From IMG/VR virus record IMGVR_UViG_2778261448_000004, positions 1 through 35,370 of that record: a stretch of DNA of 35,370 nt; one strand, 5' to 3'. Shown piece after piece: positions 9,242 through 35,370 of the stretch. The position numbers and the translations under genes were made by a program. Each line of letters opens with the position of its first letter. The stretch's first letter is position 1. The notes beneath the pieces are model-generated. The model was not told the DNA's origin. It saw nothing but the letters and a program-made list of their open reading frames with translations, and made no database searches. Source of the stretch: a virus. Taxonomy: Duplodnaviria > Heunggongvirae > Uroviricota > Caudoviricetes.

Positions 9242-9260
9242 ACTTCGTTTCTCCTCTTAA

Positions 9261-17349: not shown

Positions 17350-17556
17350 ATGCTGAACCTCGATTGCGTTCCTATCTCAACTTATTGCAAAGAAACTGGC
17401 GAAACTCCTGAAGCAATAAACAAACGTGTACAGCGCGGTGTTTGGCGTGAAGGTGTTCAGGTTTTAAAGGTTGAAGGCGTTAAGGAGAGGTGGATTGATC
17501 TTAGTGAGGTTGCAAAATGGGCCAGACAAAACTGCTCAAACTACCGCGCGGCGTAA
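17350..17556 (+). CDS. excisionase-like protein (Xis)
   Basis: Small basic protein directly upstream of and overlapping the integrase gene; ATG 17350 preceded by GGAG; track ORF starts at an upstream GTG (17338). Confidence 0.6.
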   Translation: MLNLDCVPISTYCKETGETPEAINKRVQRGVWREGVQVLKVEGVKERWIDLSEVAKWARQNCSNYRAA

Positions 17557-18713
17557 CAATCAGAAAACACCGTCAGGGAGAAACGATCAATATAACTTTC
17601 ACCTACAAAGGAGTTAAATGTCGTGAGCCACTTTCCAATCTGGAAGTAACACCAAAGAACATTAAATACGCCGAGCGCACACTCGGCGAAATTCATAATA
17701 AGATCGAAAGGGGAACATTCATTTATGCGGAATATTTTCCCCGTTCTGCTCGTTTGAAAATTTTTGGTAATGCTGCTGCAGGCAAAACGGTAAAAATGTA
17801 CCTGGACGAATACCTTGAAATCTGCGAAACGAGAAAACTTTCACCATCTACGATTGGTGGTTATAAAAAATGCCGTAGTGCGTTAGCCTCACTCCACATT
17901 TGCCCTGCAAGTGAATTAACACCAGCAATCCTGAAAGCGTGGATTCAAAGCCAGAAAACGACCTTAAAAACAATTCGCAACCAGTTATCTTTCCTGCGGT
18001 CAGCACTTGATGAAGCCGTAACCGATGGGGTACTTCAAATTAACCCCGTATCGTTGGTAACTGCTTCGCGCTACCAAAGTGATAAGTCAGAAGTAGAAAG
18101 CAGCTACGTGGTTGATCCGCTATCACCAACAGAAGTTGATGCATTACTAGCAGCAGCCGGAAACAAACAATGGGAGAATCTGTTCCGGTTCGCTATACAT
18201 ACAGGCCTGCGTAGTTCTGAATTATGTGCCCTTCGATGGCGTGATATCGACTTTGTTGGAAAAACTGCCCATGTCCAGAGCGCAAGTGTTGTCGGTGTTA
18301 TCAAAGGGACAAAGACAAAAGCAGGTACTCGTAAAGTTGAACTGACAGAAGAGGCAATGTTGGCGCTGATAAATCAGAAGCCATTTACATTCATGAAGGA
18401 TGCTACTGTCTTTGAAGACCCAAAGACCAATAAGCCTTGGGCAAGTGCTGATGCAATCAGGAAAAAAGCATGGGTGCCAACATTACGGAAAGCAGGTATT
18501 CGATACAGAAATCCATATCAAACTAGGCATACATTCGCCACCAGCCATATCAGCCGAGGAGCAAATCTGTTTTGGCTTGCAGCTCAAATGGGGCATAAAG
18601 GGCCGGAAATGCTTTTCAGGCATTATGGTTCGTATCTCGTAGACTATGATGGCAAGACAGCTTGTAAGGACCAAGTATCAAAAAATCCGGAGAACATGAA
18701 AATTGAGAAGTAA
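17517..18713 (+). CDS. tyrosine integrase of the lambdoid prophage
   Basis: 398 aa; N-terminal arm-binding-type region (LPRGVTIRKHRQGETINITFTYKGVKCRE); C-terminal catalytic region with R...HxxR...Y context (RHTFATSHISRGANLFWLAAQMGHKGPEMLFRHYGSY). Confidence 0.85.
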   Translation: MGQTKLLKLPRGVTIRKHRQGETINITFTYKGVKCREPLSNLEVTPKNIKYAERTLGEIHNKIERGTFIYAEYFPRSARLKIFGNAAAGKTVKMYLDEYLEICETRKLSPSTIGGYKKCRSALASLHICPASELTPAILKAWIQSQKTTLKTIRNQLSFLRSALDEAVTDGVLQINPVSLVTASRYQSDKSEVESSYVVDPLSPTEVDALLAAAGNKQWENLFRFAIHTGLRSSELCALRWRDIDFVGKTAHVQSASVVGVIKGTKTKAGTRKVELTEEAMLALINQKPFTFMKDATVFEDPKTNKPWASADAIRKKAWVPTLRKAGIRYRNPYQTRHTFATSHISRGANLFWLAAQMGHKGPEMLFRHYGSYLVDYDGKTACKDQVSKNPENMKIEK

Positions 18714-18903: not shown

Positions 18904-20169
18904 ATGTTGATTGAGTTTACAGTACAAAACTATAAATCTATTTCAGAGAAACAAACACTGAGTTTAGTTGCATCAAAACTTAACGATTTGCCTAATAATC
19001 TGTTCAGTATTGATGAACCTAAATCTCTTGAATTGCTTAAAAGTGCTGTGATTTATGGCCCTAATGCTGCCGGAAAATCAAACATTATTAACGCTATTAC
19101 AACTATGGCTGAACTTATTGTCCGGTCTGCTACAGGTTATAAAAGTGGTGATAAACTTGATATCACGCCTTTTAGACTAGACTCAAAGAAGATTAATCAA
19201 CCATCTGAATTTGAAATTAACTTTATTTCCGAAGGCATCAGATACCAGTATGGTTTTTCTGCAACAGAAGATTTTATTCACGACGAATGGTTATTTGCAT
19301 TCCCCAAAGGCAGACCACAAAAATGGTTTTTACGTCTATGGGATGAAGAAAAACAAACCCATGAATGGGAGTTGGGGCCATCGTTGACAGGAGAAAAACA
19401 AACATGGTTGAAATCAACTAGGCCTAATGCGCTCTTTCTTTCTACAGCGGTACAATTAAACAGTGTACAACTAAAACCTGTATACGATTGGTTTTATTAC
19501 AAAGTTAAATTTACTGAATTAACAGGTTGGGATAGTGATTACAGTGCAAAGCAATGCTTAAATGATAAGAAAGATGAGATTCTCAATTTTTTAAAAGCTG
19601 CCGATGTAGGTATTGATGACATTCATGTAACAAAAGAAAAATTCAATCCCAATGCTCTTCCTGATGATATGCCTGCAGCCATCAAGGAACTAGTGATTAA
19701 GAATATGCAAGGCAAGGAAGAATATGTCATTAAAACACTTCATAATAATGAGGATGGAGAGCCAATTCCATTCGATTTAAAAGATGAATCGCATGGAACT
19801 AGAAAAATCTTTAGTTTCGCGGGTCCCTTATCACATTCACTCGAGACAGGAAACATCCTGTTTATTGATGAATTAAATGATAACTTACACCCCAAATTAG
19901 TTGAGTTTATTGTAGGTTTATTTCACGATAAAAATATCAATAAGAATGGTGCCCAGTTAATCTTTACAACTCATGAGACGTCTATTTTAAATCAAGATGT
20001 TTTCAGACGAGATCAGATTTGGTTTGTAGAAAAAGACAATTCAAAGCAAACAAATCTTTTCCCACTTACGGATTTTAGTCCAAGAAAAGGAAGGGAGAAT
20101 TTAGAAGCTTCTTATCTTGACGGTAGATATGGGGCTTTACCACTCATTGGGAAATGGGAGAGATATTAA
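18904..20169 (+). CDS. ABC-type AAA ATPase (AbiLi/AriA-like)
   Basis: 421 aa; Walker A GPNAAGKSN; Walker B ILFIDELNDNLHP; D-loop/H-loop region IFTTHE; low-GC; start close to an AT-rich upstream region. Confidence 0.8.
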   Translation: MLIEFTVQNYKSISEKQTLSLVASKLNDLPNNLFSIDEPKSLELLKSAVIYGPNAAGKSNIINAITTMAELIVRSATGYKSGDKLDITPFRLDSKKINQPSEFEINFISEGIRYQYGFSATEDFIHDEWLFAFPKGRPQKWFLRLWDEEKQTHEWELGPSLTGEKQTWLKSTRPNALFLSTAVQLNSVQLKPVYDWFYYKVKFTELTGWDSDYSAKQCLNDKKDEILNFLKAADVGIDDIHVTKEKFNPNALPDDMPAAIKELVIKNMQGKEEYVIKTLHNNEDGEPIPFDLKDESHGTRKIFSFAGPLSHSLETGNILFIDELNDNLHPKLVEFIVGLFHDKNINKNGAQLIFTTHETSILNQDVFRRDQIWFVEKDNSKQTNLFPLTDFSPRKGRENLEASYLDGRYGALPLIGKWERY

Positions 20170-20855
20170 TGGGAAGCGAAGATCTGTTCAAAAAAAGAAA
20201 GGCTCGGCGTAATAATGAATTCAAACGAGTTAGTAAAGCACGAGCTCAAATGAAGAAAATTCTTATCGTCTGTGAGGGAGAGAAGACTGAGCCCGCATAT
20301 TTTACAGATTTTATAAAACATTGCCGTATAAGCACGGCAAGCATAGTTGAGATTTCTGGAGAGTGCGGCTCAAGCCCTATGAATGTGGTATCTTGGGCAA
20401 AAGAAAAATATAATACGGAAAAAAAAAGGAGCGACCCTTATGATAAGGTTTATTGTGTCTTTGATAGAGACGCTCACCCTAACTATGATGAAGCTCTTAG
20501 CAGGATTAATTCCTTAAATCCAAAAGGGATTTTTGTTGCTATAACTTCCATACCATGTTTCGAGTACTGGCTGATACTACATTTTGGATACACCCGAAAA
20601 TCATTTTCACCTCAGAAAGGCAAAAGTGAAGGCGCACAAATGCTAGCTGAGTTAAAAAAATACATGCCAGATTATGAGAAAAAGGCATCAGGTGTATTTA
20701 ATAAATTGCAAGATCGGCTCGATACGGCATTAATCAATGCTAAAAGAGTCGAAGATGCCGCCAAAAAAGACGGTTCGATAAATCCTTCAACTAAAGTTGG
20801 CGCTTTGATTACAGATCTAATTAACATTCGTGATGACTTTGAAAATGAGAAGTAA
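20169..20855 (+). CDS. RloB-like / TOPRIM (OLD-family) protein, partner of the ATPase
   Basis: N-terminal motif ILIVCEGEKTEPAYF and downstream VFDRD acidic motif typical of RloB/TOPRIM proteins; ATG 20169 overlaps the ATPase stop (TAATG) with GGGAGAG RBS; alternative in-frame ATG at 20154. Confidence 0.75.
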   Translation: MGSEDLFKKRKARRNNEFKRVSKARAQMKKILIVCEGEKTEPAYFTDFIKHCRISTASIVEISGECGSSPMNVVSWAKEKYNTEKKRSDPYDKVYCVFDRDAHPNYDEALSRINSLNPKGIFVAITSIPCFEYWLILHFGYTRKSFSPQKGKSEGAQMLAELKKYMPDYEKKASGVFNKLQDRLDTALINAKRVEDAAKKDGSINPSTKVGALITDLINIRDDFENEK

Positions 20856-21216: not shown

Positions 21217-22458
21217 ATGGCAAGACAAACCAAACCTCTATCCGTTAAAGAAATAGAATCAGCCAAACCCAAGGAGGCGGACTACGTTCTCTATGATGGC
21301 GATGGCCTTGAGCTACTCATTAAATCCAGCGGGAGTAAAATCTGGCAGTTTCGCTACATTCGCCCTGTCACCAAGAAACGAGCAAAGAAGAGCATAGGCT
21401 CCTACCCGTCAGTTACCCTTGCCGATGCCAGAAACTACCGTGCAGAGTCCCGCTCACTACTGGCTAAACAGATCGATCCGCAGGAACATCAGCAAGAACA
21501 ATTGCGCAGTTCGCTGGAAGCCAAAACCAACACTTTCCAACTCGTAGCTGAACGTTGGTGGAATGTGAAGAAAGCCAGTGTGACAGAGGACTATGCGGAA
21601 GATATCTGGCGCTCTCTTGAAAGAGACGTCTTTCCTGCGATTGGCGACGTTAGCGTTACAGATATTAAAGCTCATACACTGGTTCAGGCCGTACAACCGG
21701 TTCAGGCCAGAGGAGCACTGGAAACTGTTCGTCGCCTGTGCCAACGTATTAATGAGGTCATGATCTATGCCCAGAACACAGGGCTGATTGATGCTGTTCC
21801 CAGCGTTAATATCGGTAAAGCCTTCGAGAAGCCTCAGAAAAAGAACATGCCCAGCATTCGACCGGATCAGCTACCTCAGTTAATGCAGACGATGCGAACA
21901 GCCAGCATTAGCCTTTCCACACGCTGCCTGTTCATGTGGCAACTTCTTACTATTACCCGCCCTGCCGAAGCGGCTGAAGCTCTCTGGGAAGAGGTAGACA
22001 TAGAAGCGCGAGAGTGGAAGATTCCTGCAGCACGCATGAAAATGAACCGCGACCATACTGTTCCATTGTCAGATGAAGCAATTGCGATACTAGAGATGAT
22101 GAAGCCGTTAAGTGGAAATCGAGAATTTATCTTTCCCAGCCGCATCAAGCCAAACCAGCCGATGAACAGTCAGACCGTAAACGCATCGCTAAAACGCGCA
22201 GGTTTTGGTGGGGTGCTCGTTTCACACGGCCTGCGATCTATCGCCAGTACAGCCCTTAATGAGCAGGGATTTCCACCTGATGTTATTGAGGCTGCACTTG
22301 CTCATGTGGATAAGAATGAGGTTCGTCGTGCGTATAACCGTAGTGATTATCTTGAGCAGCGACGGCCTATGATGCAGTGGTGGGCTGATTTTGTGATGGC
22401 TGCAGATCACGGTAGTATGATTGAAGGAGGGATAAAGGCAATGCGGTTAGTTGGATGA
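21217..22458 (+). CDS. intA: P4-family tyrosine integrase (CP4-57 IntA-like) adjacent to ssrA
   Basis: 413 aa starting MARQTKPLSVKEIESAKPKEADYVLYDGDGLELLIKSSGSKIWQFRY, the typical P4-type integrase N-terminus; about 205 bp downstream of the tmRNA 3' end, as for ssrA-intA in E. coli K-12 (recollection). Confidence 0.8.
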   Translation: MARQTKPLSVKEIESAKPKEADYVLYDGDGLELLIKSSGSKIWQFRYIRPVTKKRAKKSIGSYPSVTLADARNYRAESRSLLAKQIDPQEHQQEQLRSSLEAKTNTFQLVAERWWNVKKASVTEDYAEDIWRSLERDVFPAIGDVSVTDIKAHTLVQAVQPVQARGALETVRRLCQRINEVMIYAQNTGLIDAVPSVNIGKAFEKPQKKNMPSIRPDQLPQLMQTMRTASISLSTRCLFMWQLLTITRPAEAAEALWEEVDIEAREWKIPAARMKMNRDHTVPLSDEAIAILEMMKPLSGNREFIFPSRIKPNQPMNSQTVNASLKRAGFGGVLVSHGLRSIASTALNEQGFPPDVIEAALAHVDKNEVRRAYNRSDYLEQRRPMMQWWADFVMAADHGSMIEGGIKAMRLVG

Positions 22459-22596: not shown

Positions 22597-25500
22597 CTAT
22601 TTTAAATCAGCCTTTGCGGCTCGAATATCTGCGTTTTTTGCTGAGTATTCCCATTCGTCAGCGATTCTAAATAGCATTGCAGAAGTACGGACGCAGTGGG
22701 GCATTGAATTTGCCCATTCTCGGTACTGCTCAGCTAATATCCTTTCTTGGTTTCCACCTTCGTAACGCATACGAGCAAATACCCCCCTTTTATTGTACCT
22801 ACCAATTTGTATACCTTGCTCTAACTCATCAGAAGATAATATTTCAATGATGTGCCGAATTGCTTCATGTGGCCAGGAATTATCTACTGAGCTATTAGGG
22901 GCATGTGCCAGAATTTTTCCTATTACATGATCAGTGATTTCTTGGCGATGATGCAATTTTGCTAAATGGCGTACATTCTCACACCAATCTTCAAGTTTAT
23001 CTTGATCAATTTCATTGTCTATCTGCCCTGGTAGTATTCGTAATTTTTCAAGTAATCTGTATATAGAAGTAGCTCTTTTAACTTCCAACTCCGATGGTTC
23101 TGTTTGTTCATCTTCGTCACTACGATATACAATACATATTGCTTCTATAAAAACCTCTGGCTTTTTCATCATTAGACGATGCAGGATAAGTGGCTCATCG
23201 CTATCCGGAAAACAAGGCAAGTAGGTCATTTCTTTAAATGCCAAATCTGTTTCAGAAACATCGTTACGTTGTTTGAGTTCATCAAAAACTTTTTTTACAT
23301 AGTACGATAGCATTGTATCAAATTGGATATCCTGGCTATTTATTTCTTTAACGACTATATCTAGAAGATATAAAAGTGTTGTAGATGGAATCTCAGAAAG
23401 GCGTTGATTTGCTGATATAATAGCAGCAAGACCCCGGCCCCTTTCTATATATTTATCCATAAGAACAAATAAATCCGAAGTTTTACCCATCATTGCAATG
23501 GGTTGTTTTTGCAACCAATATTTTTCGTTGATGTTATCTTCAAACCCTTCAATAATGCTCCATATCTCTTGTGAGTCTCTTAACGATGCTAAGATTTTCC
23601 CAGCCCTATCAGGGGTAATTTTAAACTGTTTAAAATACACTTTTATTTTATTAAGCCATTCAGCACCAAAGCATTCAACACCATATTGCATTAACAACCC
23701 ACAAACTTCATCAATATTTTTTTTGTTGTTAATAAGCATTACAAACAAATCATTTAATTTTTCTTCATCCAACGAGAGTGCTGATATATGCCTTGCTGCA
23801 ATAAAAACATTATTAACTTGTTGAAAAAGGTCTTTCACCCCAGACAAACCTAAAGTAAAGTATATTTCCCTAAGTTTTTCACTTCGCATTTCTTCGACAG
23901 AAGAAAAAATTCCGCCAGCATTTTCAATTGACTCTTCAATATCAGAATCCCAATCATTGAAAATCCATAAACTGGCTCTAACCATGTCAATTGGTTTATA
24001 ATTATCAAGTATTTTCGCTATTTTTTCCATAGACTCAAATTTAAATGCCCAGTTCGCATCTGAATATTTTTTATGGCGAGAATACTCATGACGCAAAGCC
24101 TCCCATACGATGAACTGATCCTCTTCAGTTTGTTGAGAAAGGCAAAGTTCAAGATGAGAAAGTGTTTCATCTATTGCATTCTCAGGGAATGAGCTTAAAT
24201 GAGAGATTAGGATTTCCCATCTTGTTGGGAGTATACCTGCAAGTTTAATTGCTTCTTGGATAATAAAGATTTGCCCCTCCCAAACAACGCCCCACGTTAG
24301 TTTTTCTACATCTTTATCCGACTCTCTGAACTTCATTTTTTGGTTTTGATCAGAGGTATCATGGGAGCGAGGAAGGAGATTTTGTAACAAACTCCACCCA
24401 ATACTAGGAACAATAGTGATAATTTTTTTTATAATTGCATTTCTAACTTTTACTGGTGCCCATGTATTAGGAGACCATGCCAGAAAAATGGTTCTTAAAC
24501 TATTAAGAGGGCGATCTGAGTAAGTTCCTCCGGGATCTATTACAGCGAGTTTTGCAAGACAGATTGCAGCGCGTAATAGATATGTTTGTTCCCAAGCCAA
24601 GGCTTCCAATGCCCATTTTAATCCATGATAATGACTTCGAGGAGTTAACAGCCCTTTATCTTCATTGAATATTGGAGCAATCATTTCCCCATTGCCCTTA
24701 AGCAATTGCTCAAGGGCATCAAGGAAAGGGCCAGGGGCAGCTTCTGCCAGCAGCGGAAGTTGATCTCGCAAACTAACAAATAGTCGATGGTCGTTAGCAA
24801 GTCCCGGAATACTCTGAACTATTTTGTTAACAAAATCTTGGGGTGTCATACCAGTAACCCGGAATTCGGCCTGTTCATGTAATATTGCCATATGTAGCAA
24901 AACTGTTGTCATTCCATTACGTAACCACGAGCTATAAGACGTTTTAATACCATTGTCAGGTACAAACAGATCTTCGGCCTTTGGTGGTTCAGGAATATAG
25001 GAAAAAACCTCTCTTACGGCCTTCTCAAAACGCTCCAGGTGTTCTTCACCCAGCAAATAGCCTAAATGTACAAAAGCATCTACCGACGAACGCAATGACC
25101 AAATATCATCTACTCGGTCAATTGGAGAATCGCGGCGCTTTGTTAATAGCCTTAATGGATTTTCAACTTGAGAATAGTCTGTATAGCCAGCTAGTTGCTT
25201 GAGAATTAACTTATCTTTCTCTGAACATGTACTCCATGCACCAGCTAATAAAGCAGGGAGCAACTCAGGGCTGTCTTTCCATTCAGGTGATTCAGCCGTG
25301 CTACTTGATATCTGGCGAGCCAAAACAGACAAACTTCGGCCACACTGCCGCGCTATTTGATAACTATTATCTGAATCAAACCCCATAGATTCAAGAGCCT
25401 TACCTAAAGATATACTATCTGGGCGGATCAGAAGTTCGTGATCAGTTCGTGTTTCATCGGCTCCGGCACTTACTACTGTGATAGATGCTTGCTGTAATAA

Positions 25501-26343
25501 ACCGGCTAAAGCTCTTGCTCGATCACGTGGTAAGAAGATCATTCCTCTTTTTCCAGAAAGCTGTCTTGCAGCATCATCCGTATCAATAATTAGTGCTCGA
25601 CTTTGAAAGGAATGTCGAAGTTCCGCTTCAGTGGTTCTGATAGCTGCAATCGCAAAAGCAATAACCTCATCCGGAGAATCTGCAGCTAAAGATATTTTTC
25701 GACCATTTTCTCGTAACTCATTCAGAAAACGCTCTTTTTGCTTTTCTCTCCCCGCCAGCAAGACTGCTTCAGTTAAAGGGGGATTAAATTTAGTGGAAAA
25801 TTCATCCCAAAACTCCTTAATGCTTCTAACACCAACCTGTGGCATTAGCTCAAGATGGTAGCGAGCGTAGTAAGCAGCTACAGCAGGGCAAACACCGAGC
25901 CAATCTTCAAGCATAGAACCATCAATTAATTTGATGTCTTTCCACTTACCACTATTGCGTTTCTCTTGTAGCCAGTCTTCAAGCTTTACCTTAGGATTAT
26001 CCCATGTTCTTAATGAAGCGAAAACAAAAGTAGTCTTTAGACGTATCTCTGGAGCAACTTCGCGTGTTCTTTTTTCGTAATCAAAGTTAGCTTTATCAAG
26101 CAATTTTTCATTAACACCAAATTCCCAGAATGAGTCGCCATCAGGAACATAGGGGGCCACCCCCTCGGCTTTAAGTACACCGTCATAACCTCTAACCTGT
26201 CCCTTATCACCATTAGGAAATCTAATTTCAGTAATACTGTTAGCCGTTGCACGTATAAGATCAGCGATTAGTGCTGGAAAAATAACTTTTGCAGGAATAG
26301 AATCTGCCCATTGCTGAAGGTTAAGTGCTTTTATCCATTTCAT
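22597..26343 (-). CDS. giant hypothetical protein (1248 aa), no canonical P-loop; low-GC island cargo
   Basis: Single uninterrupted ORF with ATG and GGAG RBS; N-terminal segment with a PDGD motif (GVAPYVPDGDSFWEFGVNEK); rest predicted helical; R-x5-H (RHLAKLH) near C-terminus. Function not recognisable. Confidence 0.8.
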   Translation of the reverse strand: MKWIKALNLQQWADSIPAKVIFPALIADLIRATANSITEIRFPNGDKGQVRGYDGVLKAEGVAPYVPDGDSFWEFGVNEKLLDKANFDYEKRTREVAPEIRLKTTFVFASLRTWDNPKVKLEDWLQEKRNSGKWKDIKLIDGSMLEDWLGVCPAVAAYYARYHLELMPQVGVRSIKEFWDEFSTKFNPPLTEAVLLAGREKQKERFLNELRENGRKISLAADSPDEVIAFAIAAIRTTEAELRHSFQSRALIIDTDDAARQLSGKRGMIFLPRDRARALAGLLQQASITVVSAGADETRTDHELLIRPDSISLGKALESMGFDSDNSYQIARQCGRSLSVLARQISSSTAESPEWKDSPELLPALLAGAWSTCSEKDKLILKQLAGYTDYSQVENPLRLLTKRRDSPIDRVDDIWSLRSSVDAFVHLGYLLGEEHLERFEKAVREVFSYIPEPPKAEDLFVPDNGIKTSYSSWLRNGMTTVLLHMAILHEQAEFRVTGMTPQDFVNKIVQSIPGLANDHRLFVSLRDQLPLLAEAAPGPFLDALEQLLKGNGEMIAPIFNEDKGLLTPRSHYHGLKWALEALAWEQTYLLRAAICLAKLAVIDPGGTYSDRPLNSLRTIFLAWSPNTWAPVKVRNAIIKKIITIVPSIGWSLLQNLLPRSHDTSDQNQKMKFRESDKDVEKLTWGVVWEGQIFIIQEAIKLAGILPTRWEILISHLSSFPENAIDETLSHLELCLSQQTEEDQFIVWEALRHEYSRHKKYSDANWAFKFESMEKIAKILDNYKPIDMVRASLWIFNDWDSDIEESIENAGGIFSSVEEMRSEKLREIYFTLGLSGVKDLFQQVNNVFIAARHISALSLDEEKLNDLFVMLINNKKNIDEVCGLLMQYGVECFGAEWLNKIKVYFKQFKITPDRAGKILASLRDSQEIWSIIEGFEDNINEKYWLQKQPIAMMGKTSDLFVLMDKYIERGRGLAAIISANQRLSEIPSTTLLYLLDIVVKEINSQDIQFDTMLSYYVKKVFDELKQRNDVSETDLAFKEMTYLPCFPDSDEPLILHRLMMKKPEVFIEAICIVYRSDEDEQTEPSELEVKRATSIYRLLEKLRILPGQIDNEIDQDKLEDWCENVRHLAKLHHRQEITDHVIGKILAHAPNSSVDNSWPHEAIRHIIEILSSDELEQGIQIGRYNKRGVFARMRYEGGNQERILAEQYREWANSMPHCVRTSAMLFRIADEWEYSAKNADIRAAKADLK

Positions 26344-26810
26344 ATTGGTACTCCACCCAATAAAATTTTAAACAACCAAATCTAAAAAAAACTAATATTA
26401 AAAATTCATTTTTAATGTACACAAAATGCTAACAAAATTGCTAAAGAGTAAAAAATCAGGACTTATTTATTGATCTTAAACATTAGCCAAATTTTTAAAC
26501 TCGCACTAAACCACCTCAAGAATAAAAAATCATCAAGTTAGTGGAACTTTTTGCACCTAGAATGCTCGTTAACCTCACAGTCATATAAAGCATGAGCCTG
26601 TCCTTTGTTCATACTAGACCTTAGTTTCATACATACTGATAGCTCTACGTAAAAGTAGGTATGATCGACATCACAGTTCTGAGTCAGAACATCTTAACCA
26701 ATTGAAGTGGATGGTTTTAATTGTAAATGTTCAGCGGACATCTCTTCCCTCATTGGTTAGACTAAGAGCAACTTTTTCTATGGTCGCAATATCTTTTATA
26801 GGGTTTAAAA

Positions 26811-29800
26811 GTGGCAATCTTTGACATTGAAAAGGACGAATTACTTCGGCTCTCCGATATCCAGCTGGAAGAGCTGATCGCTCGGCTAGCAGAAGCTGAA
26901 GTGGCAATGCACGGCCATAGCCCAGCATGTGTAAATTGGTCTGGTTCAATTACAGCCCCTGACGGAGGAATTGACATCCATGTTCAGGTTCCAATTGATC
27001 AACTGAAAGCAGGCTTTCTTGTAAGACCTGATACGGTCTTTCAGGCAAAGAAACATAAGATGCCTAAGTCTGCAATTGAGAGGGAAATTGGCACCGGCAA
27101 AGCACTTTCTCCCATCATTTCTGAACAAGCCAGAAAGCAAGGCAGTTACATCATTGTCAGCCTGGGTGATGATTGCTCGCCGTCAGGAAAGAAGGATCGT
27201 CTCAAAGCGATGAGGGATGCAGTAAAAGATGATCCTAACGAAAGTTATCTTCATCTTGATTTCTACGACCGCTCCAAACTCATCCAATGGTTGCGCCAAC
27301 ATCCATCAGTCATGCTGTGGGTAAAAGCAAAGCTTGGGCAAGGGTATTCCGGTTGGCAACCCTACGGAGCCTGGAGCAATCCACCACAAGGTGTTATAGA
27401 CACTTTAATCTCAGCCCCAGGCGTAACCATTACTTTACCATCGGGAAAGGGGCAAAAACTCAAAATTGATGAAGCAATTAACCCAATGCGAGCACTGATC
27501 CGTTCGACAAACAAGGCTGTTCGTATTACAGGATTGTCTGGTGTTGGGAAGACTCGAATCGTTCAGGCGCTCTTTGATGAAACTGTTGGAACAGATGCGC
27601 TTGACCGAACAGTAGCTATTTATGTTGATACTGGCTATGAGCCAGTACCGTCGGCTACAGCAATGCTTGATAACCTGCTCGCTGAAGGCCGGCGAGCAAT
27701 TATGATCCTTGATAATTGCCCATCAGAACTCCATGCTTCGCTTGCCAGCAAAGTATCAGCCGCAGGGAAAGAAGTAAGTCTCATCACGATCGAGTACGAC
27801 ATTAGGGATGACAAACCACAGACAACTGAGGTCATCCACATTGAGACAGATGGTCCAGACGTGGCAGAGCAACTTCTTATCCGTCGCTTCCCTTCTATTG
27901 GTCAGAATAATGCCCGTCGGATTGCAGAGTTCGCAGATGGGAATGCAAGAGTGGCTTTGGCTATAGCGGAAAGAGTGGAAGAAGGTGAGAGTTTAGCCCT
28001 ACTTTCAGATGCGCAGTTGTTTAATCGCTTGTTTGAACAACGTAATCATCCCGACGGCCATTTACGGGAGCAAGCTGAAATATTGTCACTGGTGTATTCG
28101 TTCTCGATATCTAGTCCAGATGCAGCTACCGATGAACTGGAAATATTGGGTGTGCTCTCTGGGTATCCCAAAATCCAGTTATTCAAAGCTGTTACGAAGT
28201 TGATGGAACGTCACATTGTTCAGAAAAGATCCCACTGGAGAGCCATCCTTCCCCATGCCATTGCTAACAAGTTGGCAGCATCTGCACTTAATAGTATTCC
28301 GATTGATCAACTTAGAACGACCTTTGAAGCTCCGGATCGGCAACGATTATTGATGTCGTTCGCGCACAGGTTGGGACTATTGCATAGCCATGCTGTGGCT
28401 AAAGAGATTGTTGAAGCTTGGTTACAGCCCGAAGGGCTGCTTGGAAAAATAATAGACCTAGATGATGTATCGACACGCATTCTAAATTATATCGCTCCAG
28501 TTGCCCCAGGAGCTTTGCTTGAGAGGATTGAAGAAACGCTTGTTACGTCTAATTTTGAGCATTTTAAATCACGCTACAACCCACAACGAACAGCAATTAT
28601 CAAATTGTTGCAGTTACTTGCATATGAATCGAAATACTTTGAACGATGCATTAAGCTCTTAATCCGTATCGCAGACCAGGAAAGCGCGAGCAATAATTAT
28701 GATTCGGCTCGAAATAAGATAAAGAGGTTTTTCCAACCTTATCTATCCGGTACCCATGCCTCTTTAGAACAACGTGTTGCGATCATGAATGAATGCATTG
28801 ATTCAAGTATGGCCGAACGTAGAAGGATGGGGATCGAAATGCTTGAAACTGCTCTCGGCGGACCTCCGTGGACAGGATTCGGAATTAATGAGTTTGGTGC
28901 TAGGCCAAGAGATTATGGATTTCGACCCAGTTACGATGAACTTGTTGCGTGGCTATTCGCCTTCATCGATATTTTGGTGAGATTAGGAACCTCAGGAGTG
29001 CCCGAGCTTGAAGATGATGCCAGGCGGATCTTGGCTGATAAATTTCGCTGGATTTGGCGTCATGGAGGAATAAGGTCAAAATTAATTGATGCGGCTCGTA
29101 AGTTACATGCCCATCGCCCTTGGGGTGAAGGCTGGAAAGCTGTCCGCTCAACAATCTACTTTTTCCATACAAAAAGAAAAGATAACGAAGACGTAGAACC
29201 ATTGCCGGAAATACTTGTGACATTGGAACGAGAATTAGAACCTAAAGACTTGGTTTCGGCAATCATGGTTTATGTACTCAGTAATAGGCGCGATTTTTGG
29301 GCTCTAGATGCTGATTATGAGCACCAAGGAACTAATAAATTCAGTGAAATCAGGAAAATACTTTGTGCCAAAGCTTTCAAGTTGGGGCACGAATTTGCAG
29401 TATCTTCCCATGGACTTGATGAGTTGTGCCCTAATCTTTTTTTGCGGGATGGAATGCCGTATCGCGTCGAATTTGGTAAAGGCTTAGCTAACGGGGCTCC
29501 TGACCTACGAATTTATTGGCAACAACTAGTCATTCAATTGGATCTACAACACAAATCTCAACGTGATGTTTCGGTCATTCGAGGTTTCATTGAAGAGACT
29601 CATTCTATCGATTCAGCATTAGCGCAGGAACTGCTCGATCAGTGTGCACAACATTCCGAACTTCGATTCGAATTAGTCAACCTTCATCCTTGGCAGGAGT
29701 TTACTGAAATCGATCTGGATCGTTGCATGTCGCTTCTGGATGACTCTGACATACAGCCCCATATGTATGGGGCAATTCTGTGGGGTGAGCAATTCTCTAA

Positions 29801-30662
29801 TTTGCCAGAAAGCAGGGTCCTCGAGCTAGCTCAAAGGCTGCTGAGTAAACCGAATGGTGATGAAGTAGTATTGGAAGCACTGAGTATGAAACTAGCTGAT
29901 AAAGGAGATGCTACGGATACACTAGGTCTTGCGCTACGAACAATCGGAATATCCGCTGCAATCCAGAGGTTCCAAAGAGATCACAACGATCTCGGCGGAT
30001 ATCTGGATTATGCAATGGAACGTGTTATCGATGCCACATTGCGCTTCGATGGCAACGAGGCTGAAAAGCTAGAATGGCTGAATACAATCTTCGCTGTTGT
30101 TGATGAGCATTTTGGCTACATTTATTCTTTCGAAGACGCTATCGGTATCACCGCTGCATGGATGCCAAAAGAATTTCTCAGTCGCATTTTTGATGGTACG
30201 GAGGATCAACAACAGAGGCGGCTGCATTTCATCAATCATGATGATTCACATCAGTCTCCTATTGCGAAAATCGATGTAGATATTTTGATTGAATGGTGCA
30301 GGACCACTAAAGACCCTCAGGTTTGGGCTTCAGTCGCTTCAGGTATTAATCTATGGTCAAAAGACGGGGAGCAAAGTCCTATTTGCTTGCAGGATGATGC
30401 TCTGAGATTTCTAGAAGCCTCACCCGAGCCACGAGCCGTCCTTGAGATCTTTGCCGAACACGTAGCACCTTCATCATGGTTCGGTAGTCGTGCGAACGTG
30501 ATGCAACCTAGGGTTGAAGCGATAGGCCAGTTGGTCACCCACGAGCGTGCAGACATTTCTAAGTCGGCTAGAGCTGTTTATGAAAAACTGACTGACTGGG
30601 TTGAAAAGGAAAAAGAACGTGAGCGATTGGAAGATGAGGCATTGGAACAACGGTTTGAATAA
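26811..30662 (+). CDS. giant STAND-like NTPase (1283 aa) with N-terminal Mrr-like nuclease motif (Avs-like candidate)
   Basis: N-terminal APDGGIDIHVQ ... FQAKKH resembles the Mrr-type PD-(D/E)xK catalytic motif; Walker A ITGLSGVGKTRIV; Walker B AIMILDNC; ~900-aa helical C-terminal region. Track start is a GTG, so the true start is uncertain. Confidence 0.8.
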   Translation: MAIFDIEKDELLRLSDIQLEELIARLAEAEVAMHGHSPACVNWSGSITAPDGGIDIHVQVPIDQLKAGFLVRPDTVFQAKKHKMPKSAIEREIGTGKALSPIISEQARKQGSYIIVSLGDDCSPSGKKDRLKAMRDAVKDDPNESYLHLDFYDRSKLIQWLRQHPSVMLWVKAKLGQGYSGWQPYGAWSNPPQGVIDTLISAPGVTITLPSGKGQKLKIDEAINPMRALIRSTNKAVRITGLSGVGKTRIVQALFDETVGTDALDRTVAIYVDTGYEPVPSATAMLDNLLAEGRRAIMILDNCPSELHASLASKVSAAGKEVSLITIEYDIRDDKPQTTEVIHIETDGPDVAEQLLIRRFPSIGQNNARRIAEFADGNARVALAIAERVEEGESLALLSDAQLFNRLFEQRNHPDGHLREQAEILSLVYSFSISSPDAATDELEILGVLSGYPKIQLFKAVTKLMERHIVQKRSHWRAILPHAIANKLAASALNSIPIDQLRTTFEAPDRQRLLMSFAHRLGLLHSHAVAKEIVEAWLQPEGLLGKIIDLDDVSTRILNYIAPVAPGALLERIEETLVTSNFEHFKSRYNPQRTAIIKLLQLLAYESKYFERCIKLLIRIADQESASNNYDSARNKIKRFFQPYLSGTHASLEQRVAIMNECIDSSMAERRRMGIEMLETALGGPPWTGFGINEFGARPRDYGFRPSYDELVAWLFAFIDILVRLGTSGVPELEDDARRILADKFRWIWRHGGIRSKLIDAARKLHAHRPWGEGWKAVRSTIYFFHTKRKDNEDVEPLPEILVTLERELEPKDLVSAIMVYVLSNRRDFWALDADYEHQGTNKFSEIRKILCAKAFKLGHEFAVSSHGLDELCPNLFLRDGMPYRVEFGKGLANGAPDLRIYWQQLVIQLDLQHKSQRDVSVIRGFIEETHSIDSALAQELLDQCAQHSELRFELVNLHPWQEFTEIDLDRCMSLLDDSDIQPHMYGAILWGEQFSNLPESRVLELAQRLLSKPNGDEVVLEALSMKLADKGDATDTLGLALRTIGISAAIQRFQRDHNDLGGYLDYAMERVIDATLRFDGNEAEKLEWLNTIFAVVDEHFGYIYSFEDAIGITAAWMPKEFLSRIFDGTEDQQQRRLHFINHDDSHQSPIAKIDVDILIEWCRTTKDPQVWASVASGINLWSKDGEQSPICLQDDALRFLEASPEPRAVLEIFAEHVAPSSWFGSRANVMQPRVEAIGQLVTHERADISKSARAVYEKLTDWVEKEKERERLEDEALEQRFE

Positions 30663-30707
30663 AGGCTAGTTGCCGTCTTCACAGGAATTCTGTTTAAAGG
30701 AGAAATC

Positions 30708-31454
30708 ATGGAATCTGCACGTAATAAATATACCAGTGAGATTATTGAGGCAGAAGATCTTTGGTTACTTGATGTTGTAGATACGAACGGTTACGTATGC
30801 TGGGGATGTGGGATTGAGATGTATCCTTCCGCTTGGCAAAAAGGAAGTAAGAAAAGACCGTCGTTTAATAAAATGCCTGGAAAAGAGCATATTAACTGTG
30901 ATGCAGATGCTGAAAGCACAGTGGTTAAGCAGGGACAGAAAAAAAGCGTCCGCAACATGCTAGACAGCGCACCGGGTTTGATGCCCGCAGGGTTAAAATT
31001 GATTGAACAACGACCCGTTGTTGATCCTGGCACTACTGGTAGCGACAACAACACCAATCCAATACGTTCTACATCGTCAGCATCCAGCGGGGGAAATGCT
31101 CCAGCGCGGCAATCCCGCCGCCCGGTTAATGCTATTCGCCAGATTTGTAGGGCATTTATTCGCTTCCCGTATGACCGTGGTATGTCATTAAATATCCCAG
31201 GTATTGATGCCGATACTTACATGACCGTGTTTAAAAAACTAAAAGACCCGGTTCAACCCTACCCTGAGCGCCGAGTTTTTTATTCGCAGTTGTTATGGCA
31301 GAAATTTGAGCAAGACGAAAACCGAATTGTCATTCCGCTCTCGGGAGAATGGGCAAAAGACGAATCTGGTAAGTTTAAGCCCTCGCGTAGCTATAAACTA
31401 CACATTGAGTGGGGAGACTGGTCAAAAGCCAAAAAAGACTATGCTTTTGAATGA
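30708..31454 (+). CDS. hypothetical protein (248 aa) co-transcribed downstream of the STAND gene
   Basis: ATG 30708 with AGGAG RBS 46 bp after the STAND stop; Cys cluster YVCWGCG ... HINCD (possible zinc ribbon); Ser/Gly/Thr-rich linker. Confidence 0.7.
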   Translation: MESARNKYTSEIIEAEDLWLLDVVDTNGYVCWGCGIEMYPSAWQKGSKKRPSFNKMPGKEHINCDADAESTVVKQGQKKSVRNMLDSAPGLMPAGLKLIEQRPVVDPGTTGSDNNTNPIRSTSSASSGGNAPARQSRRPVNAIRQICRAFIRFPYDRGMSLNIPGIDADTYMTVFKKLKDPVQPYPERRVFYSQLLWQKFEQDENRIVIPLSGEWAKDESGKFKPSRSYKLHIEWGDWSKAKKDYAFE

Positions 31455-31621
31455 GCTTGAAACTGTGCAGGAAGAAGCAAAAGAAGCAGTAAATAAAAAA
31501 GCTAAAGAGAGAGCTCAAGTCTTCTTTATCGGTGAACAAAGCACTGAGAATCCGGAAATCTTCTACGTGAGTGATTACCGGTTAATCTGTGCGATTATGG
31601 GATATATAATTTACCCCTGAC

Positions 31622-31658
31622 GTAAATGGGCCTTCTTGCAAAATGCAGGCCCATTTAC
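31622..31658. terminator. 11-bp perfect inverted repeat (candidate bidirectional terminator or binding site)
   Basis: GTAAATGGGCC - 15-nt loop - GGCCCATTTAC between the convergent 248-aa and 293-aa genes; flanking sequence AT-rich but without a clean T-run. Confidence 0.4.
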
Positions 31659-31887
31659 ATAATTATTTTCGACTACCACTAAGGCTACTTCAAACCTATA
31701 AATTTCATTCAATTTCTCGTGTAGACACAATTACAACAGTCATCATAACAATAGTCATATTAACAATGATTGGTTTTCCAATAGATTTATGTGGGGTATT
31801 TTCATAGCGATGTAATTTCAAACCCATCAAGACTGATCGTATAGTAGCCCTCCTGATAGACATAAAAATATCAAAACCATAATAATA

Positions 31888-32769
31888 TTAATTGTTAGTA
31901 TTGTTCTTTAGGACTTTATCAATCTCTACTTTTAGATCACCTGTAGACCATTTATTAAGTCTGCGGCGGATAGTTTCCTCTCTATCGCCTGTATCATTTA
32001 TCCATTTATCTGGATTGACCTTTTTATCATTATTACAAATATAGGGCATTAAATATTCAAGAAGTTGACGTTTATTTTTCCAGTCGCTATGTGAAGGAAT
32101 ATCTTCAAGTAAGATAACAACTGTATCTTTAATATATTCAAGTTCTGCAAGTTTATTTTTCCCTCCAGCGCTTGAGCGCGCTCTTCTGCATACTTTATCA
32201 AAACCACTTCTTAATCGATAAAAACTCGGTAAGTCTCGGTTATCATCTCGCGAAATACAGACATTCATATAAGAATAAGCATCAAGAAGAAACTTACAAC
32301 TTTCTTTTTTATTGCCCAATGAATATTGGAACTGCGCCCAGTAAAAATCTTCTAAAGCCATAGATAGATATATATATTCATAATGTGCATCATATAGTCT
32401 TGCTAATCCTGTCAGTTTATACCCGTCCATTTTTCCTCGAATTTCAATCCGATATTCTGCATATGTTTCCTTATAAATAAAAGGTTTCTCAACCATTATT
32501 CCATCAACATTTATAAACTCTTGTGAGTAGCGTATATTGTCGCTATTAGTCATATCTACAAAATATTGACATTGTATTTTTGAATACTCAATAATTTTAA
32601 ATTCTTCAATTTTATCATAGGCTCTTTGCCTGTAAGTGCGCAGAACATCCTGGTTGCTCTCCTTTTTTTCGACTTCAAGTTTCCATTCCAGCTCAAGAAG
32701 TTTGTCCTCACAAGCGGTACAAACTTGCAGATAGAAATCATCAAAAAAATTCGCACTCACATCCTTCAT
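31888..32769 (-). CDS. hypothetical protein (293 aa), AT-rich orphan gene
   Basis: Very low-GC ORF with Lys/Asn/Tyr-rich composition; divergent from alpA; no recognisable motif. Confidence 0.7.
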   Translation of the reverse strand: MKDVSANFFDDFYLQVCTACEDKLLELEWKLEVEKKESNQDVLRTYRQRAYDKIEEFKIIEYSKIQCQYFVDMTNSDNIRYSQEFINVDGIMVEKPFIYKETYAEYRIEIRGKMDGYKLTGLARLYDAHYEYIYLSMALEDFYWAQFQYSLGNKKESCKFLLDAYSYMNVCISRDDNRDLPSFYRLRSGFDKVCRRARSSAGGKNKLAELEYIKDTVVILLEDIPSHSDWKNKRQLLEYLMPYICNNDKKVNPDKWINDTGDREETIRRRLNKWSTGDLKVEIDKVLKNNTNN

Positions 32770-33287: not shown

Positions 33288-34821
<1,534 letters not shown>

Positions 34822-34829
34822 CCACTACA

Positions 34830-35270
34830 GTGTGAATTACCACCCTTAATTGTCGTTCCATTGCTGATACCACCTGTATAAACGTCCTGATTGCCACTGT
34901 CGATTATCGTACCGGTGGAAATGCCCCCGTCATGAATTGTCTGTCTTCCTCCGTTAATGGTTGTATTATTAGCCTGCCCCACAAAATTGTTATGACTTCC
35001 TACATCTTGATATCCACCCGATTCAATAAGACTTCCATTAGATACCCCGCCATGAACATTCTGCTGGCCATGGTTGATAATATGAGTGTTATTTGTTGTA
35101 CCTCGTTCATCTACTCTTTGGCTGCCATCTACAGTCTCATCGTTTACCACACCAATAACATCAGGAGTGAAGGCCGTCATCCCAGGCGGGGCATATATCA
35201 AGGCAGATATCAATAAGGAAAGTACTGAGCGGCGACAATAATGGGGACTGGTCCTGTTCATAAATTTCAT
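34830..35270 (-). pseudogene. autotransporter adhesin gene, 5' fragment (signal peptide plus first passenger repeats), truncated by the IS
   Basis: MKFMNRTSPHYCRRSVLSLLISALIYAPPG signal-peptide-like N-terminus followed by Gly/Asn/Thr-rich beta-helix-type repeats; frame runs into the IS right end at 34829. Confidence 0.6.
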
Positions 35271-35370
35271 CCTCTGAAAAGTGAATACTGAGTTGATCTT
35301 ACCCAGCAATAGTGGACACGCGGCTAAGTGAGTAAACTCTCAGTCAGAGGTGACTCACATGACAAAAACA

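What the first reader, a model, noticed from the sequence alone, without database searches (positions are those of the whole stretch)
26811..31454. STAND/Avs-like giant NTPase with Mrr-like nuclease head plus a co-transcribed 248-aa Cys-motif partner
The 1283-aa protein has, in order, an Mrr-type nuclease signature (PDGGIDI ... FQAKKH), a canonical P-loop (GLSGVGKT) with Walker B (IMILDNC), and ~900 aa of helical repeats. This is the effector-NTPase-sensor layout of antiviral STAND (Avs-type) proteins, which sense phage terminase or portal proteins. The unusual part is the tightly linked downstream 248-aa gene (46-bp gap, AGGAG RBS) with a CWGCG...HINCD cysteine cluster, because Avs systems are mostly described as single genes. 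A possible further 59-codon frame (ATG 31441) overlaps its stop.
Basis: partly seen in the sequence, partly recalled or inferred. Interest (0 to 1): 0.75.

Follow-up and report, generated by a model that had tools for sequence, protein, structure and literature searches.

The report
Known Avs8 defence system, broken partner
This is the already described E. coli anti-phage system PD-λ-4/Avs8, a capsid-sensing STAND nuclease, and its small "partner" gene is a frameshift-broken copy of a 303-aa protein that also sits beside many other defence systems.

Summary
The 1283-aa ORF (26811-30662) matches PADLOC's PD-Lambda-4_A model end to end. It differs by one residue from Avs8A (WP_000963924.1), which preprints show binds HK97-fold major capsid protein and then degrades dsDNA. 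So the trigger is the capsid protein, not terminase or portal.

The 248-aa ORF is PD-λ-4B/Avs8B, and here it is broken. One extra A in a homopolymer run (A6 at 31431-31436; intact alleles have A5) shifts the frame.

Relatives in other genera are about 303 aa. The broken allele is present in roughly 95% of sampled complete E. coli genomes that carry the locus. It is also the allele (WP_000443183.1, 248 aa) that was tested and reported dispensable.

B is not specific to Avs8A. Only 8 of 42 species-level B loci have Avs8A upstream. The others sit beside Lamassu, Qat, CBASS, Avs1b, type I/II R-M, Gabija or CapP. Three distant Avs8A homologues have no B nearby.

Intact B is modelled as a CCHC zinc ribbon, a disordered linker and an OB-like domain. 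The fold support for the OB-like domain is only moderate.

The system itself is already known. The status of B is a modest new lead.

The parts
26811..30662 (+). avs8A (PD-λ-4A): 1283-aa STAND NTPase with an N-terminal nuclease. Intact.
   Evidence: PADLOC PDLC03991, 2529.9 bits, positions 1-1283 of 1283. One residue (V820A) differs from WP_000963924.1, the characterised ECOR07/55989 Avs8A.
26811..27335 (+). N-terminal PD-(D/E)xK (Mrr-like) nuclease effector domain, aa ~1-175. Catalytic candidates are D51/D55 (nt 26958-26978, PDGGIDI) and Q78-x-K80 (nt 27039-27056, FQAKKH).
   Evidence: D51, D55, Q78 and K80 are invariant and E28 nearly invariant in 53 homologues. The model has α-β-β-β-α-β order, with D55 at the start of β2 and QxK in β3. 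Nuclease active-site mutants lose defence, and the DNase is activated by capsid protein (literature).
27408..28730 (+). STAND NTPase module (NBD plus helical/winged-helix domains), aa ~200-640. Walker A is GLSGVGKT (nt 27531-27554) and Walker B is IMILDNC (nt 27699-27719).
   Evidence: Invariant G241-L-S-G-x-G-K247 and D301-N302. The top nine Foldseek PDB hits are all STAND proteins (6mfv, NOD2, EfAvs5, Apaf-1, NLRC4, ZAR1), E 4e-7 to 8e-5. Vassallo's HHsearch gives NB-ARC at 97.5%. Pfam gives only sub-threshold AAA_16 and NPHP3_N.
28731..30659 (+). C-terminal sensor region (aa ~641-1283), reported to be TPR-like and to bind the HK97-fold major capsid protein.
   Evidence: Not modelled here. 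Covered by the PD-Lambda-4_A HMMs. Function comes from the literature.
30698..30702 (+). AGGAG ribosome-binding site of B inside the 45-nt A-B spacer.
   Evidence: Read directly from the sequence. No promoter-like or terminator-like site lies between A and B.
30708..31454 (+). avs8B (PD-λ-4B), 5' part: 248-codon truncated reading frame. It holds the CCHC zinc ribbon (aa 1-66), the disordered linker and the first two thirds of the C-terminal domain.
   Evidence: PADLOC PDLC03992, E 2e-164, protein 1-245 against profile 1-245 of 303. One residue (D167N) differs from WP_000443183.1.
31431..31436 (+). A6 homopolymer run: the site of the +1-nt insertion that breaks B.
   Evidence: DNA alignment: the window and E. 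coli 55989 read GCC AAAAAA GAC. RMDEC465 has A5 and the intact RIT714 allele has AAAAGG. Deleting one A restores a 303-codon ORF.
31438..31620 (+). RefSeq annotates a 51-aa remnant, WP_001358523.1.
   Evidence: Matches PD-Lambda-4_B profile positions 245-303, E 1.5e-27. It carries family-invariant F272, G275, Q277, F285, D289, R291 and C294. It is annotated as a separate hypothetical protein.
31622..31658 (+). Strong hairpin, a likely terminator shared with the convergent 293-aa gene. It starts 2 nt after the stop of the full-length B frame.
   Evidence: RNA fold ΔG -20.9 kcal/mol, z = -5.0, with 0 of 200 shuffles folding as well.

Best explanation
The locus is the known anti-phage system PD-λ-4 = Avs8. 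How Avs8A works (reported in preprints for a protein that differs by one residue; not tested here): newly made monomers of an HK97-fold major capsid protein bind the C-terminal TPR-like sensor. The STAND NTPase then switches on in an ATP- and Mg-dependent way, probably by oligomerising (a tetramer is predicted). This activates the N-terminal PD-(D/E)xK nuclease, which degrades double-stranded DNA and aborts the infection. The downstream gene avs8B is probably co-transcribed (45-nt spacer, RBS, no terminator until after its ancestral stop). In this window it is a pseudogene-like allele: one extra A in an A-run shifts the frame at codon 244. The result is a 248-aa product that lacks the long helix and the last three strands of its conserved C-terminal domain. 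The '59-codon ORF' is the leftover C-terminus. My inference: the truncated B is non-functional or at most partly functional, and the locus defends through Avs8A alone. Intact B (~303 aa) is a zinc-ribbon plus OB-like, probably nucleic-acid-binding protein. It is a promiscuous resident of defence islands and not a dedicated Avs8A subunit.
For: Identity of the system: full-length PADLOC hits to PD-Lambda-4_A and _B. A and B each differ by 1 aa from WP_000963924.1 and WP_000443183.1, the accessions given for ECOR07 Avs8A and Avs8B. Mechanism of A, from the literature: Kd of 127 nM for λ gpE, a capsid-activated Mg/ATP-dependent dsDNase, loss of defence in a nuclease mutant, and no response to assembled virions. 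An independent screen also found Avs8 to sense the major capsid protein. Architecture tested here: invariant catalytic and P-loop residues, a confident model and STAND top hits. Frameshift in B: profile positions 1-245 lie in one frame and 245-303 in the +1 frame. A6 against A5 or A4GG at nucleotide level. Removing one A restores 303 aa, with the last 59 aa identical to the intact E. coli allele P0123. Almost all B homologues are 298-316 aa. The lost segment holds 7 invariant residues and part of the best-modelled domain. A hairpin follows the full-length stop. Not a sequencing error: 56 of 60 evenly sampled complete E. coli genomes are 201/201 identical across the site, and 58 of 60 show no indel. 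The exact 248-aa protein is seen on at least 1000 contigs, against 24 and 1 contigs for the two intact E. coli alleles listed. Promiscuity of B: Avs8A is upstream in only 8 of 42 B loci. Other neighbours are Lamassu + QatABCD, Avs1b and HsdR, CBASS-II and type I R-M, and Gabija, QatCD, CapP and a type II REase. No other gene family is present in more than 10 of 41 loci. Avs8A homologues in Providencia, Shewanella and an Acetobacteraceae genome have no B nearby. B is reported dispensable for λ defence.
Confidence: 0.85

Rival explanations
1. B is a genuine, dedicated accessory subunit or modulator of Avs8A, for example one that tunes specificity, limits autoimmunity or widens phage range. Its dispensability would then be an artefact of testing a broken allele against one phage.
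For: B is tightly linked on the same strand, 32-92 nt downstream, in all 8 Avs8A-linked loci. It has an RBS and no intervening terminator. The only deletion test used WP_000443183.1, which is the 248-aa truncated allele, and reported only λ.
Against: 34 of 42 B loci lack Avs8A and carry unrelated defence systems instead. Three of four distant Avs8A homologues lack B. B is 3'-truncated by independent events in 4 of the 8 Avs8A-linked loci, which argues against strong selection for the pair. Avs8A alone gives full λ defence and shows capsid-activated DNase activity in vitro.
Confidence: 0.15
2. The A6 run is a recoding or phase-variation site. A +1 ribosomal slip of tRNA-Lys from AAA to AAG, or polymerase slippage, would yield some full-length 303-aa B alongside the 248-aa form.
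For: A +1 slip on GCC-AAA-AAA-G would give ...AKKTMLLNEL..., exactly the intact protein sequence. The downstream frame is fully open and identical to the intact E. coli allele. The A6 allele is the dominant form in E. coli.
Against: Intact alleles in other genera read AAAAGG or AAAAAG in frame, so recoding is not ancestral. The 0-frame A-site codon after the run is an ordinary GAC, and there is no stop or rare codon to stall on. Six A's is short for efficient transcriptional slippage (my general knowledge). The remnant's lack of decay is uninformative, because the whole locus is at least 99% identical among E. coli. Other alleles carry further frameshifts (P0036; RMDEC465), which looks like decay.
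Confidence: 0.06
3. B is not a defence gene at all. It would be a backbone or boundary gene of integrative islands, for instance a DNA-binding maintenance or regulatory factor marking the edge of a cargo hotspot, so its adjacency to Avs8A would be positional only.
For: B sits at the distal end of very different cargo systems. In Avs8 loci it lies between the cargo and the AlpA / DUF3987 / YfjJ-type island genes. Its 3' end is a repeated rearrangement breakpoint (L015, L022, L024). Its fold suggests nucleic-acid binding.
Against: No backbone family co-occurs with B in more than 10 of 41 loci. B is found in taxa from Enterobacterales to Burkholderiales and Oligoflexus, with different genes on both sides. 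Vassallo's table maps 4B to a Gao-2020 defence-associated seed cluster of its own.
Confidence: 0.2
4. The split of B is a sequencing or assembly error in this window.
For: Homopolymer-length errors are common in some sequencing technologies.
Against: The identical A6 sequence appears in about 140 independently sequenced complete genomes, including E. coli 55989 and several O104:H4 assemblies. The exact 248-aa product is seen on at least 1000 contigs.
Confidence: 0.01

Closest known systems
PD-λ-4 (Vassallo et al. 2022, PMC9519451) = Avs8 (bioRxiv 10.1101/2025.07.02.662641; 10.64898/2026.01.04.697583)
   Same: It is the same system. The PADLOC HMM matches are full length. A is 1282/1283 identical and B 247/248 identical to the published ECOR07/55989 proteins. 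The two-gene layout is the same.
   Different: Nothing substantive differs in A. The papers do not mention that the B they used (WP_000443183.1) is a frameshift-truncated form of a 303-aa protein: 'frameshift' and 'truncat' occur zero times in the 2025 preprint.
Avs1-Avs4 (AVAST; Gao et al. 2020/2022) and other nuclease-headed Avs proteins
   Same: The three-part plan is shared: effector, STAND NTPase and repeat sensor, with activation by direct binding of a conserved phage protein. The model's top structural matches include EfAvs5 and the NLR and Apaf-1 NTPase modules.
   Different: The trigger is the major capsid protein, not terminase or portal. The sensor is a different structural cluster. 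There is no significant sequence-profile match to these families. ATP hydrolysis appears to be required.
Avs7 and Avs10 (other MCP-sensing STANDs)
   Same: They share the trigger class, the HK97-fold major capsid protein, and are reported to bind its A-domain interface.
   Different: The sensor architectures are reported as different. Avs7 recruits EF-Tu, and nothing comparable is known for Avs8.
CoiA N-terminal zinc ribbon (Pfam PF06054) and zinc_ribbon_11 (PF11682), for B's N-domain
   Same: B residues 1-66 hit the CoiA N-terminus at 93.6% HHsearch probability in Vassallo's Table S4. The ligands C31, C34, H61 and C64 are conserved.
   Different: B lacks CoiA's nuclease core. My hmmscan found no Pfam hit for B.
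Promiscuous defence-associated accessory genes such as CapH/CapP or BrxR/CapW (an analogy from my own knowledge, not a test)
   Same: Like them, B is a small gene found beside many unrelated defence systems.
   Different: There is no sequence or fold relationship. B usually lies downstream of the neighbouring system, not upstream of it. No regulatory role has been shown.

Membership tests
PD-λ-4 / Avs8, A subunit | Full-length match to the family HMM and near-identity to the characterised protein | tested here: met
   PDLC03991, 2529.9 bits, positions 1-1283 of 1283. One substitution against WP_000963924.1.
PD-λ-4 / Avs8, A subunit | Activated by the HK97-fold major capsid protein; defends against λ | not testable with these tools
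   Literature only.
STAND NTPase | Walker A GxxxxGK[ST] and Walker B hhhhD | tested here: met
   GLSGVGKT at 241-248 and IMILDN at 297-302, invariant in 53 homologues.
STAND NTPase | NBD-helical-winged-helix fold closest to the NB-ARC/NACHT class and not to generic AAA+ | tested here: met
   Model at pLDDT 85.9. The top nine Foldseek PDB hits are all STAND proteins, E 4e-7 to 8e-5, ranking ahead of RFC clamp loaders. TM-scores are low (0.18-0.26), which I attribute to differing domain orientations.
STAND NTPase | Significant match to a curated STAND sequence profile (NB-ARC, NACHT, AAA_16) | tested here: inconclusive
   AAA_16 scores only 18.8-19.9 bits against a cut-off of 32.6. It appears in 37 of 53 homologues, always below threshold. 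NPHP3_N appears in 5 of 53. The PDB profile search gives Roq1 at E 0.11. Vassallo's HHsearch gives NB-ARC at 97.5%.
STAND NTPase | C-terminal repeat (TPR-like) sensor | tested here: inconclusive
   The region is helical from aa ~349 to 640 in the model. Residues 641-1283 were not modelled. TPR-like according to the literature.
Mrr-like PD-(D/E)xK nuclease | Conserved D...(D/E/Q)xK catalytic motif on an α-β-β-β-α-β core | tested here: met
   D51, D55, Q78 and K80 are invariant and E28 nearly invariant. The secondary-structure order is H16-33, E41-43, E56-59, E74-80, helices, E112-117.
Mrr-like PD-(D/E)xK nuclease | Significant match to the Mrr_cat (PF04471/PF13156) profile | tested here: not met
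   No Mrr_cat hit at E <= 0.1 for the window protein, or at E <= 0.01 for any of 53 homologues. I therefore call it a PD-(D/E)xK-type nuclease. The 'Mrr-family' label is the preprint's.
Mrr-like PD-(D/E)xK nuclease | DNase activity that depends on the motif | not testable with these tools
   Reported: capsid-activated dsDNase, and loss of defence in an active-site mutant.
PD-λ-4 / Avs8, B subunit | One reading frame covering the ~303-position family profile | tested here: not met
   Profile positions 1-245 lie in the B frame and 245-303 in the +1 frame. The cause is the A6 insertion. It is a member by descent, but a truncated allele.
OB-fold nucleic-acid-binding domain (B C-terminal domain) | β-barrel with an inter-strand helix, matching known OB folds | tested here: inconclusive
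Dedicated two-gene Avs8 operon (A requires B) | Consistent co-occurrence of A and B, and a requirement for B | tested here: not met
   8 of 42 B loci have A upstream. Three of four distant A homologues lack B. B is reported dispensable, although the tested allele was truncated.

The most novel reading that the evidence does not exclude
The intact ~303-aa Avs8B family (CCHC zinc ribbon, disordered linker, OB-like domain) may be an independent defence-island module with a function of its own. It could be a nucleic-acid-binding sensor, regulator or helper that works with many systems (Avs8, Avs1b, Lamassu, Qat, CBASS, R-M, Gabija). That function would have been missed because the only allele tested experimentally is the E. 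coli frameshift pseudogene.
Probability: 0.3. Interest if true: 0.55.

Novelty: already known. Interest (0 to 1): 0.3.

Why it matters
The main finding needs no follow-up as a discovery. PD-λ-4/Avs8 is in PADLOC, and its trigger and effector chemistry have been described. What deserves passing on is narrower. (1) Annotators and defence-system catalogues treat the 248-aa ORF and a 51-aa 'hypothetical protein' as separate genes, but together they are one broken 303-aa gene. (2) The published conclusion that Avs8B is dispensable was reached with that broken allele, so the role of intact B remains open. It can be tested directly by deleting one A or by cloning an intact operon. (3) B occurs beside many unrelated defence systems, which makes it a candidate general accessory or boundary element of defence islands and calls the two-gene definition of PD-λ-4 into question.

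Tried and rejected
- **Pfam on A and on 53 homologues:** only sub-threshold P-loop families matched, and no NB-ARC, NACHT or Mrr_cat.
- **phmmer and profile hmmsearch of A against PDB sequences:** nothing significant; best were septin at E 0.03 and Roq1 at E 0.11, P-loop region only.
- **Nuclease domain by fold search:** it could not be searched separately, because models cannot be cropped and the STAND module dominates the hits.
- **afdb50 fold library:** unavailable.
- **The look-up of encoding contigs for the intact E. coli allele P0123:** I used RIT714 (L002/L007) and RMDEC465 (L004) instead. RMDEC465 turned out to have A5 but a second 1-nt deletion, so it is not a clean intact reference.
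- **Vassallo's supplement:** it did not reveal the length or strain of their PD-λ-4B, because all HHsearch hits lie within residues 1-69. Which allele the original screen recovered therefore remains unknown.
- **Pfam on ten longer (408-523 aa) B homologues:** no domains; the extensions are low-complexity tails.
- **Consensus terminator scan:** it found nothing in 26300-32000. The hairpin after B was found by eye and confirmed by folding.
- **ARAGORN:** no tRNA or tmRNA in the window, so the island's attachment site lies outside it.
- **Sequencing error as the cause of the frameshift:** considered and rejected.

Full report
**1. Observation**

A is at 26811..30662 (+), starts with GTG and encodes 1283 aa. 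B is at 30708..31454 (+) and encodes 248 aa. The quoted motifs are all present in the translations. The spacer between A and B is 45 nt and has AGGAG at 30698-30702. A further open frame runs from ATG 31441 to 31620, in the +1 frame relative to B. RefSeq annotates A with the same GTG start and the same length.

**2. What it is**

PADLOC identifies both proteins at once. A matches PD-Lambda-4_A over all 1283 positions (2529.9 bits). B matches PD-Lambda-4_B at E 2e-164.

PD-λ-4 was found in Vassallo et al. 2022 (PMC9519451) as an 'ATPase, hypothetical' two-gene system. It has since been renamed Avs8.

E. coli 55989 encodes WP_000963924.1 and WP_000443183.1 at the homologous locus. These are the accessions the 2025 preprint gives for ECOR07 Avs8A and Avs8B. 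The window's A differs from the first by V820A only, and its B differs from the second by D167N only. The system is therefore already known and, for A, experimentally characterised.

**3. How A works (literature, not tested here)**

- Avs8A alone gives full λ defence.
- It binds λ gpE with a Kd of about 127 nM, and the Bas21 capsid protein with a Kd of about 14 nM.
- It degrades linear dsDNA only when a capsid protein, Mg2+ and ATP are present, and not with AMP-PNP.
- It loses defence when the nuclease active site is mutated.
- It ignores assembled virions.
- An independent genetic screen also assigns Avs8 to the major capsid protein.

**4. My own tests of the architecture**

Sequence profiles are weak:
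- Pfam gives only sub-threshold AAA_16 (in 37 of 53 homologues) and NPHP3_N (in 5 of 53). No Mrr_cat appears.
- Searches against PDB sequences give nothing significant.

Structure and conservation support the layout:
- In 53 homologues of 39-75% identity, D51, D55, Q78, K80, G241-K247 and D301-N302 are invariant.
- A confident AlphaFold model of residues 1-640 (pLDDT 85.9) shows an α-β-β-β-α-β N-domain, with D55 at the start of β2 and QxK in β3. This is the PD-(D/E)xK arrangement.
- The top nine Foldseek PDB hits are all STAND proteins: an archaeal STAND-TPR, NOD2, EfAvs5, Apaf-1, NLRC4 and ZAR1, at E 4e-7 to 8e-5. They rank ahead of clamp-loader AAA+ proteins.
- Vassallo's HHsearch table lists NB-ARC at 97.5% probability.

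I accept 'STAND NTPase with a PD-(D/E)xK nuclease head'. The narrower 'Mrr-family' label was not confirmed by my profile test.

**5. The partner gene is broken**

- The B model in PADLOC has 303 positions, and the window's B covers only positions 1-245.
- At nucleotide level, the window and E. coli 55989 read GCC-AAAAAA-GAC. An A5 allele (RMDEC465) and the intact allele of Enterobacteriaceae RIT714 (AAAAGG) keep the frame.
- Removing one A from 31431-31436 yields a 303-codon ORF. Its last 59 residues are identical to those of the intact E. coli allele P0123.
- Nearly all homologues in other genera, down to about 37-44% identity in Pseudomonas and Burkholderiales, are 298-316 aa. So are the representatives among the 468 clusters found by a profile search of 1.84 billion proteins.
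- The lost segment holds seven invariant residues. In the model of intact B it forms the long helix 240-262 and the last three strands of the best-predicted domain.
- A strong hairpin (-20.9 kcal/mol, z = -5.0) begins 2 nt after the full-length stop at 31620.
- RefSeq annotates the leftover as a separate 51-aa hypothetical protein, WP_001358523.1.

**6. The lesion is real and dominant in E. coli**

- 148 of 5426 complete E. coli genomes carry the site.
- Of 60 evenly sampled genomes, 56 are 201/201 identical across it and 58 show no indel.
- The exact 248-aa protein is seen on at least 1000 contigs. The two intact 303-aa E. coli alleles listed are seen on 24 and 1 contigs.
- The one A5 genome I examined has another 1-nt deletion upstream.
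- A 303-aa cluster (P0036) carries a second, compensating frameshift that scrambles about 60 residues.

The preprint that reported 'Avs8B was dispensable' used WP_000443183.1, which is the 248-aa form. It does not mention a frameshift or truncation. That result therefore does not speak for intact B.

**7. B is not an Avs8A-specific partner**

I scanned one genome per species and found 42 B loci. Only 8 have an Avs8A homologue upstream. In the others B lies beside:
- Lamassu/ABC-3C upstream with QatABCD downstream, Avs1b, or a type I HsdR;
- a type II CBASS operon plus a DEDDh exonuclease (about 7 Pseudomonas loci), or a complete type I R-M system;
- Gabija GajA, a QatC-D fusion, CapP, or a type II REase.

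No family other than B is present in more than 10 of 41 loci. In the other direction, complete Avs8A homologues in Providencia, Shewanella and an Acetobacteraceae genome (51-71% identity) have no B nearby. Vassallo's own table assigns 4A and 4B to different Gao-2020 defence-associated seed clusters.

In 4 of the 8 Avs8A-linked loci, B is 3'-truncated by independent events. One is the A6 frameshift. The others are abrupt homology breakpoints after residues 193, 247 and 252. This compares with about 2-3 of 33 loci elsewhere (Fisher p about 0.01-0.02). The sample is small and the result exploratory.

**8. What intact B looks like**

- The AlphaFold model (pLDDT 71.7) has an N-domain at 1-66, a disordered linker at 67-141, and a C-domain at 142-303 with pLDDT 85-91.
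- C31, C34, H61 and C64 are conserved.
- Vassallo's HHsearch links residues 1-66 to the CoiA N-terminus and zinc_ribbon_11 at about 93% probability.
- Foldseek gives the same class (AIM2 HIN, LysRS, PolD, CST, Rim1, LEF-3) without significance; its best E is 3e-3.

'Zinc ribbon plus OB-like, probably nucleic-acid-binding' is a moderate-confidence inference. The function is unknown.

**9. Context**

The window holds:
- the early region of a lambdoid prophage, with its integrase at 17517-18713;
- an AbiL pair at 18904-20855;
- a second integrase at 21217-22458;
- an unannotated 1248-aa gene;
- Avs8A/B;
- an unannotated 293-aa gene;
- AlpA, a truncated GTPase gene and an IS3-family element.

This is a typical integrase-proximal defence island.

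**10. Verdict**

However, the system is already known, the trigger is the capsid protein, and the 'unusual partner' plus the 'extra 59-codon frame' together make one frameshifted gene.

The residual value lies in three points about B. The allele that was tested experimentally is broken. B is promiscuous among defence systems. Its fold hints at nucleic-acid binding.

Noticed in passing
window 22597-26343 (-): A 1248-aa ORF (RefSeq WP_000871158.1, 'hypothetical protein') lies between the island integrase and avs8A. It has no Pfam, PADLOC or PDB-sequence match. It is conserved at this position in E. coli D1 and 55989. By position, it is an uncharacterised candidate defence gene.
   Followed up: partly
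window 31888-32769 (-): A 293-aa ORF (WP_000655916.1) runs convergent with avs8B in a low-GC stretch (GC 0.35). It has no Pfam or PADLOC hit. The gene at this position differs between loci: 389-429 aa in RIT714.
   Followed up: partly
window 18904-20855 (+): An AbiL-type two-gene defence system sits directly after a prophage integrase (17517-18713) and before the second integrase. AbiLi scores E 4e-101 and AbiLii E 3e-29.
   Followed up: partly
protein P0036 (Logan assemblies; 303 aa, 12-member cluster): This B allele is identical to the window's up to about residue 186. It then reads about 60 residues in the +1 frame (the window's 104-aa ORF 31306-31620 frame) and rejoins the normal C-terminus. 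That amounts to a second, compensating frameshift upstream of the A6 run.
   Followed up: no
L001 (E. coli D1) 4909-10013; L049 (Providencia); L050 (Shewanella): Avs8A itself is often disrupted. An IS911 insertion splits it in strain D1. The Providencia homologue is split into 995 + 311 aa. In the Shewanella homologue the nuclease domain is a separate 206-aa ORF ahead of a 1071-aa ORF.
   Followed up: partly
L015, L022, L024 (B 3' ends): In three other Avs8A-linked loci, homology to B stops abruptly after residues 247, 193 and 252, and unrelated sequence follows. The 3' end of B may therefore be a recurrent rearrangement junction at the edge of the cargo region.
   Followed up: partly
L051 (Cereibacter sphaeroides) 3216-3641 (-): A weak tblastn match (E 0.002 in a tiny database; 23% identity over 143 aa) to B's C-terminal domain lies in the uncalled gap between an integrase and the Avs8A homologue. 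It could be a remote relative of B or just noise.
   Followed up: no
window 5001-7100: A sharply AT-rich segment (GC 0.33-0.40, against about 0.5 in the flanks) inside the prophage carries two ORFs, 5463-6491 (342 aa) and 6499-7074 (191 aa). Neither has a Pfam hit. This looks like a moron or cargo insertion.
   Followed up: no
window 33288-35309: A YfjP/YeeP-like GTPase gene is cut short by an IS3-family element (orfA 33608-33955, orfB 34075-34821). A fragment of a YpjA/EhaD-type autotransporter follows on the minus strand. RefSeq annotates the same arrangement in D1 and 55989.
   Followed up: partly
proteins P0321, P0361, P0379, P0382 (distant B homologues, 457-523 aa): Some distant B relatives carry long low-complexity C-terminal tails that end in a basic amphipathic helix, for example ...KRKRWVRQSVTLAKKLFSSIKRLIQLFQGR. 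They have no Pfam domain. The helix might target the protein to a membrane or act as an interaction motif.
   Followed up: no
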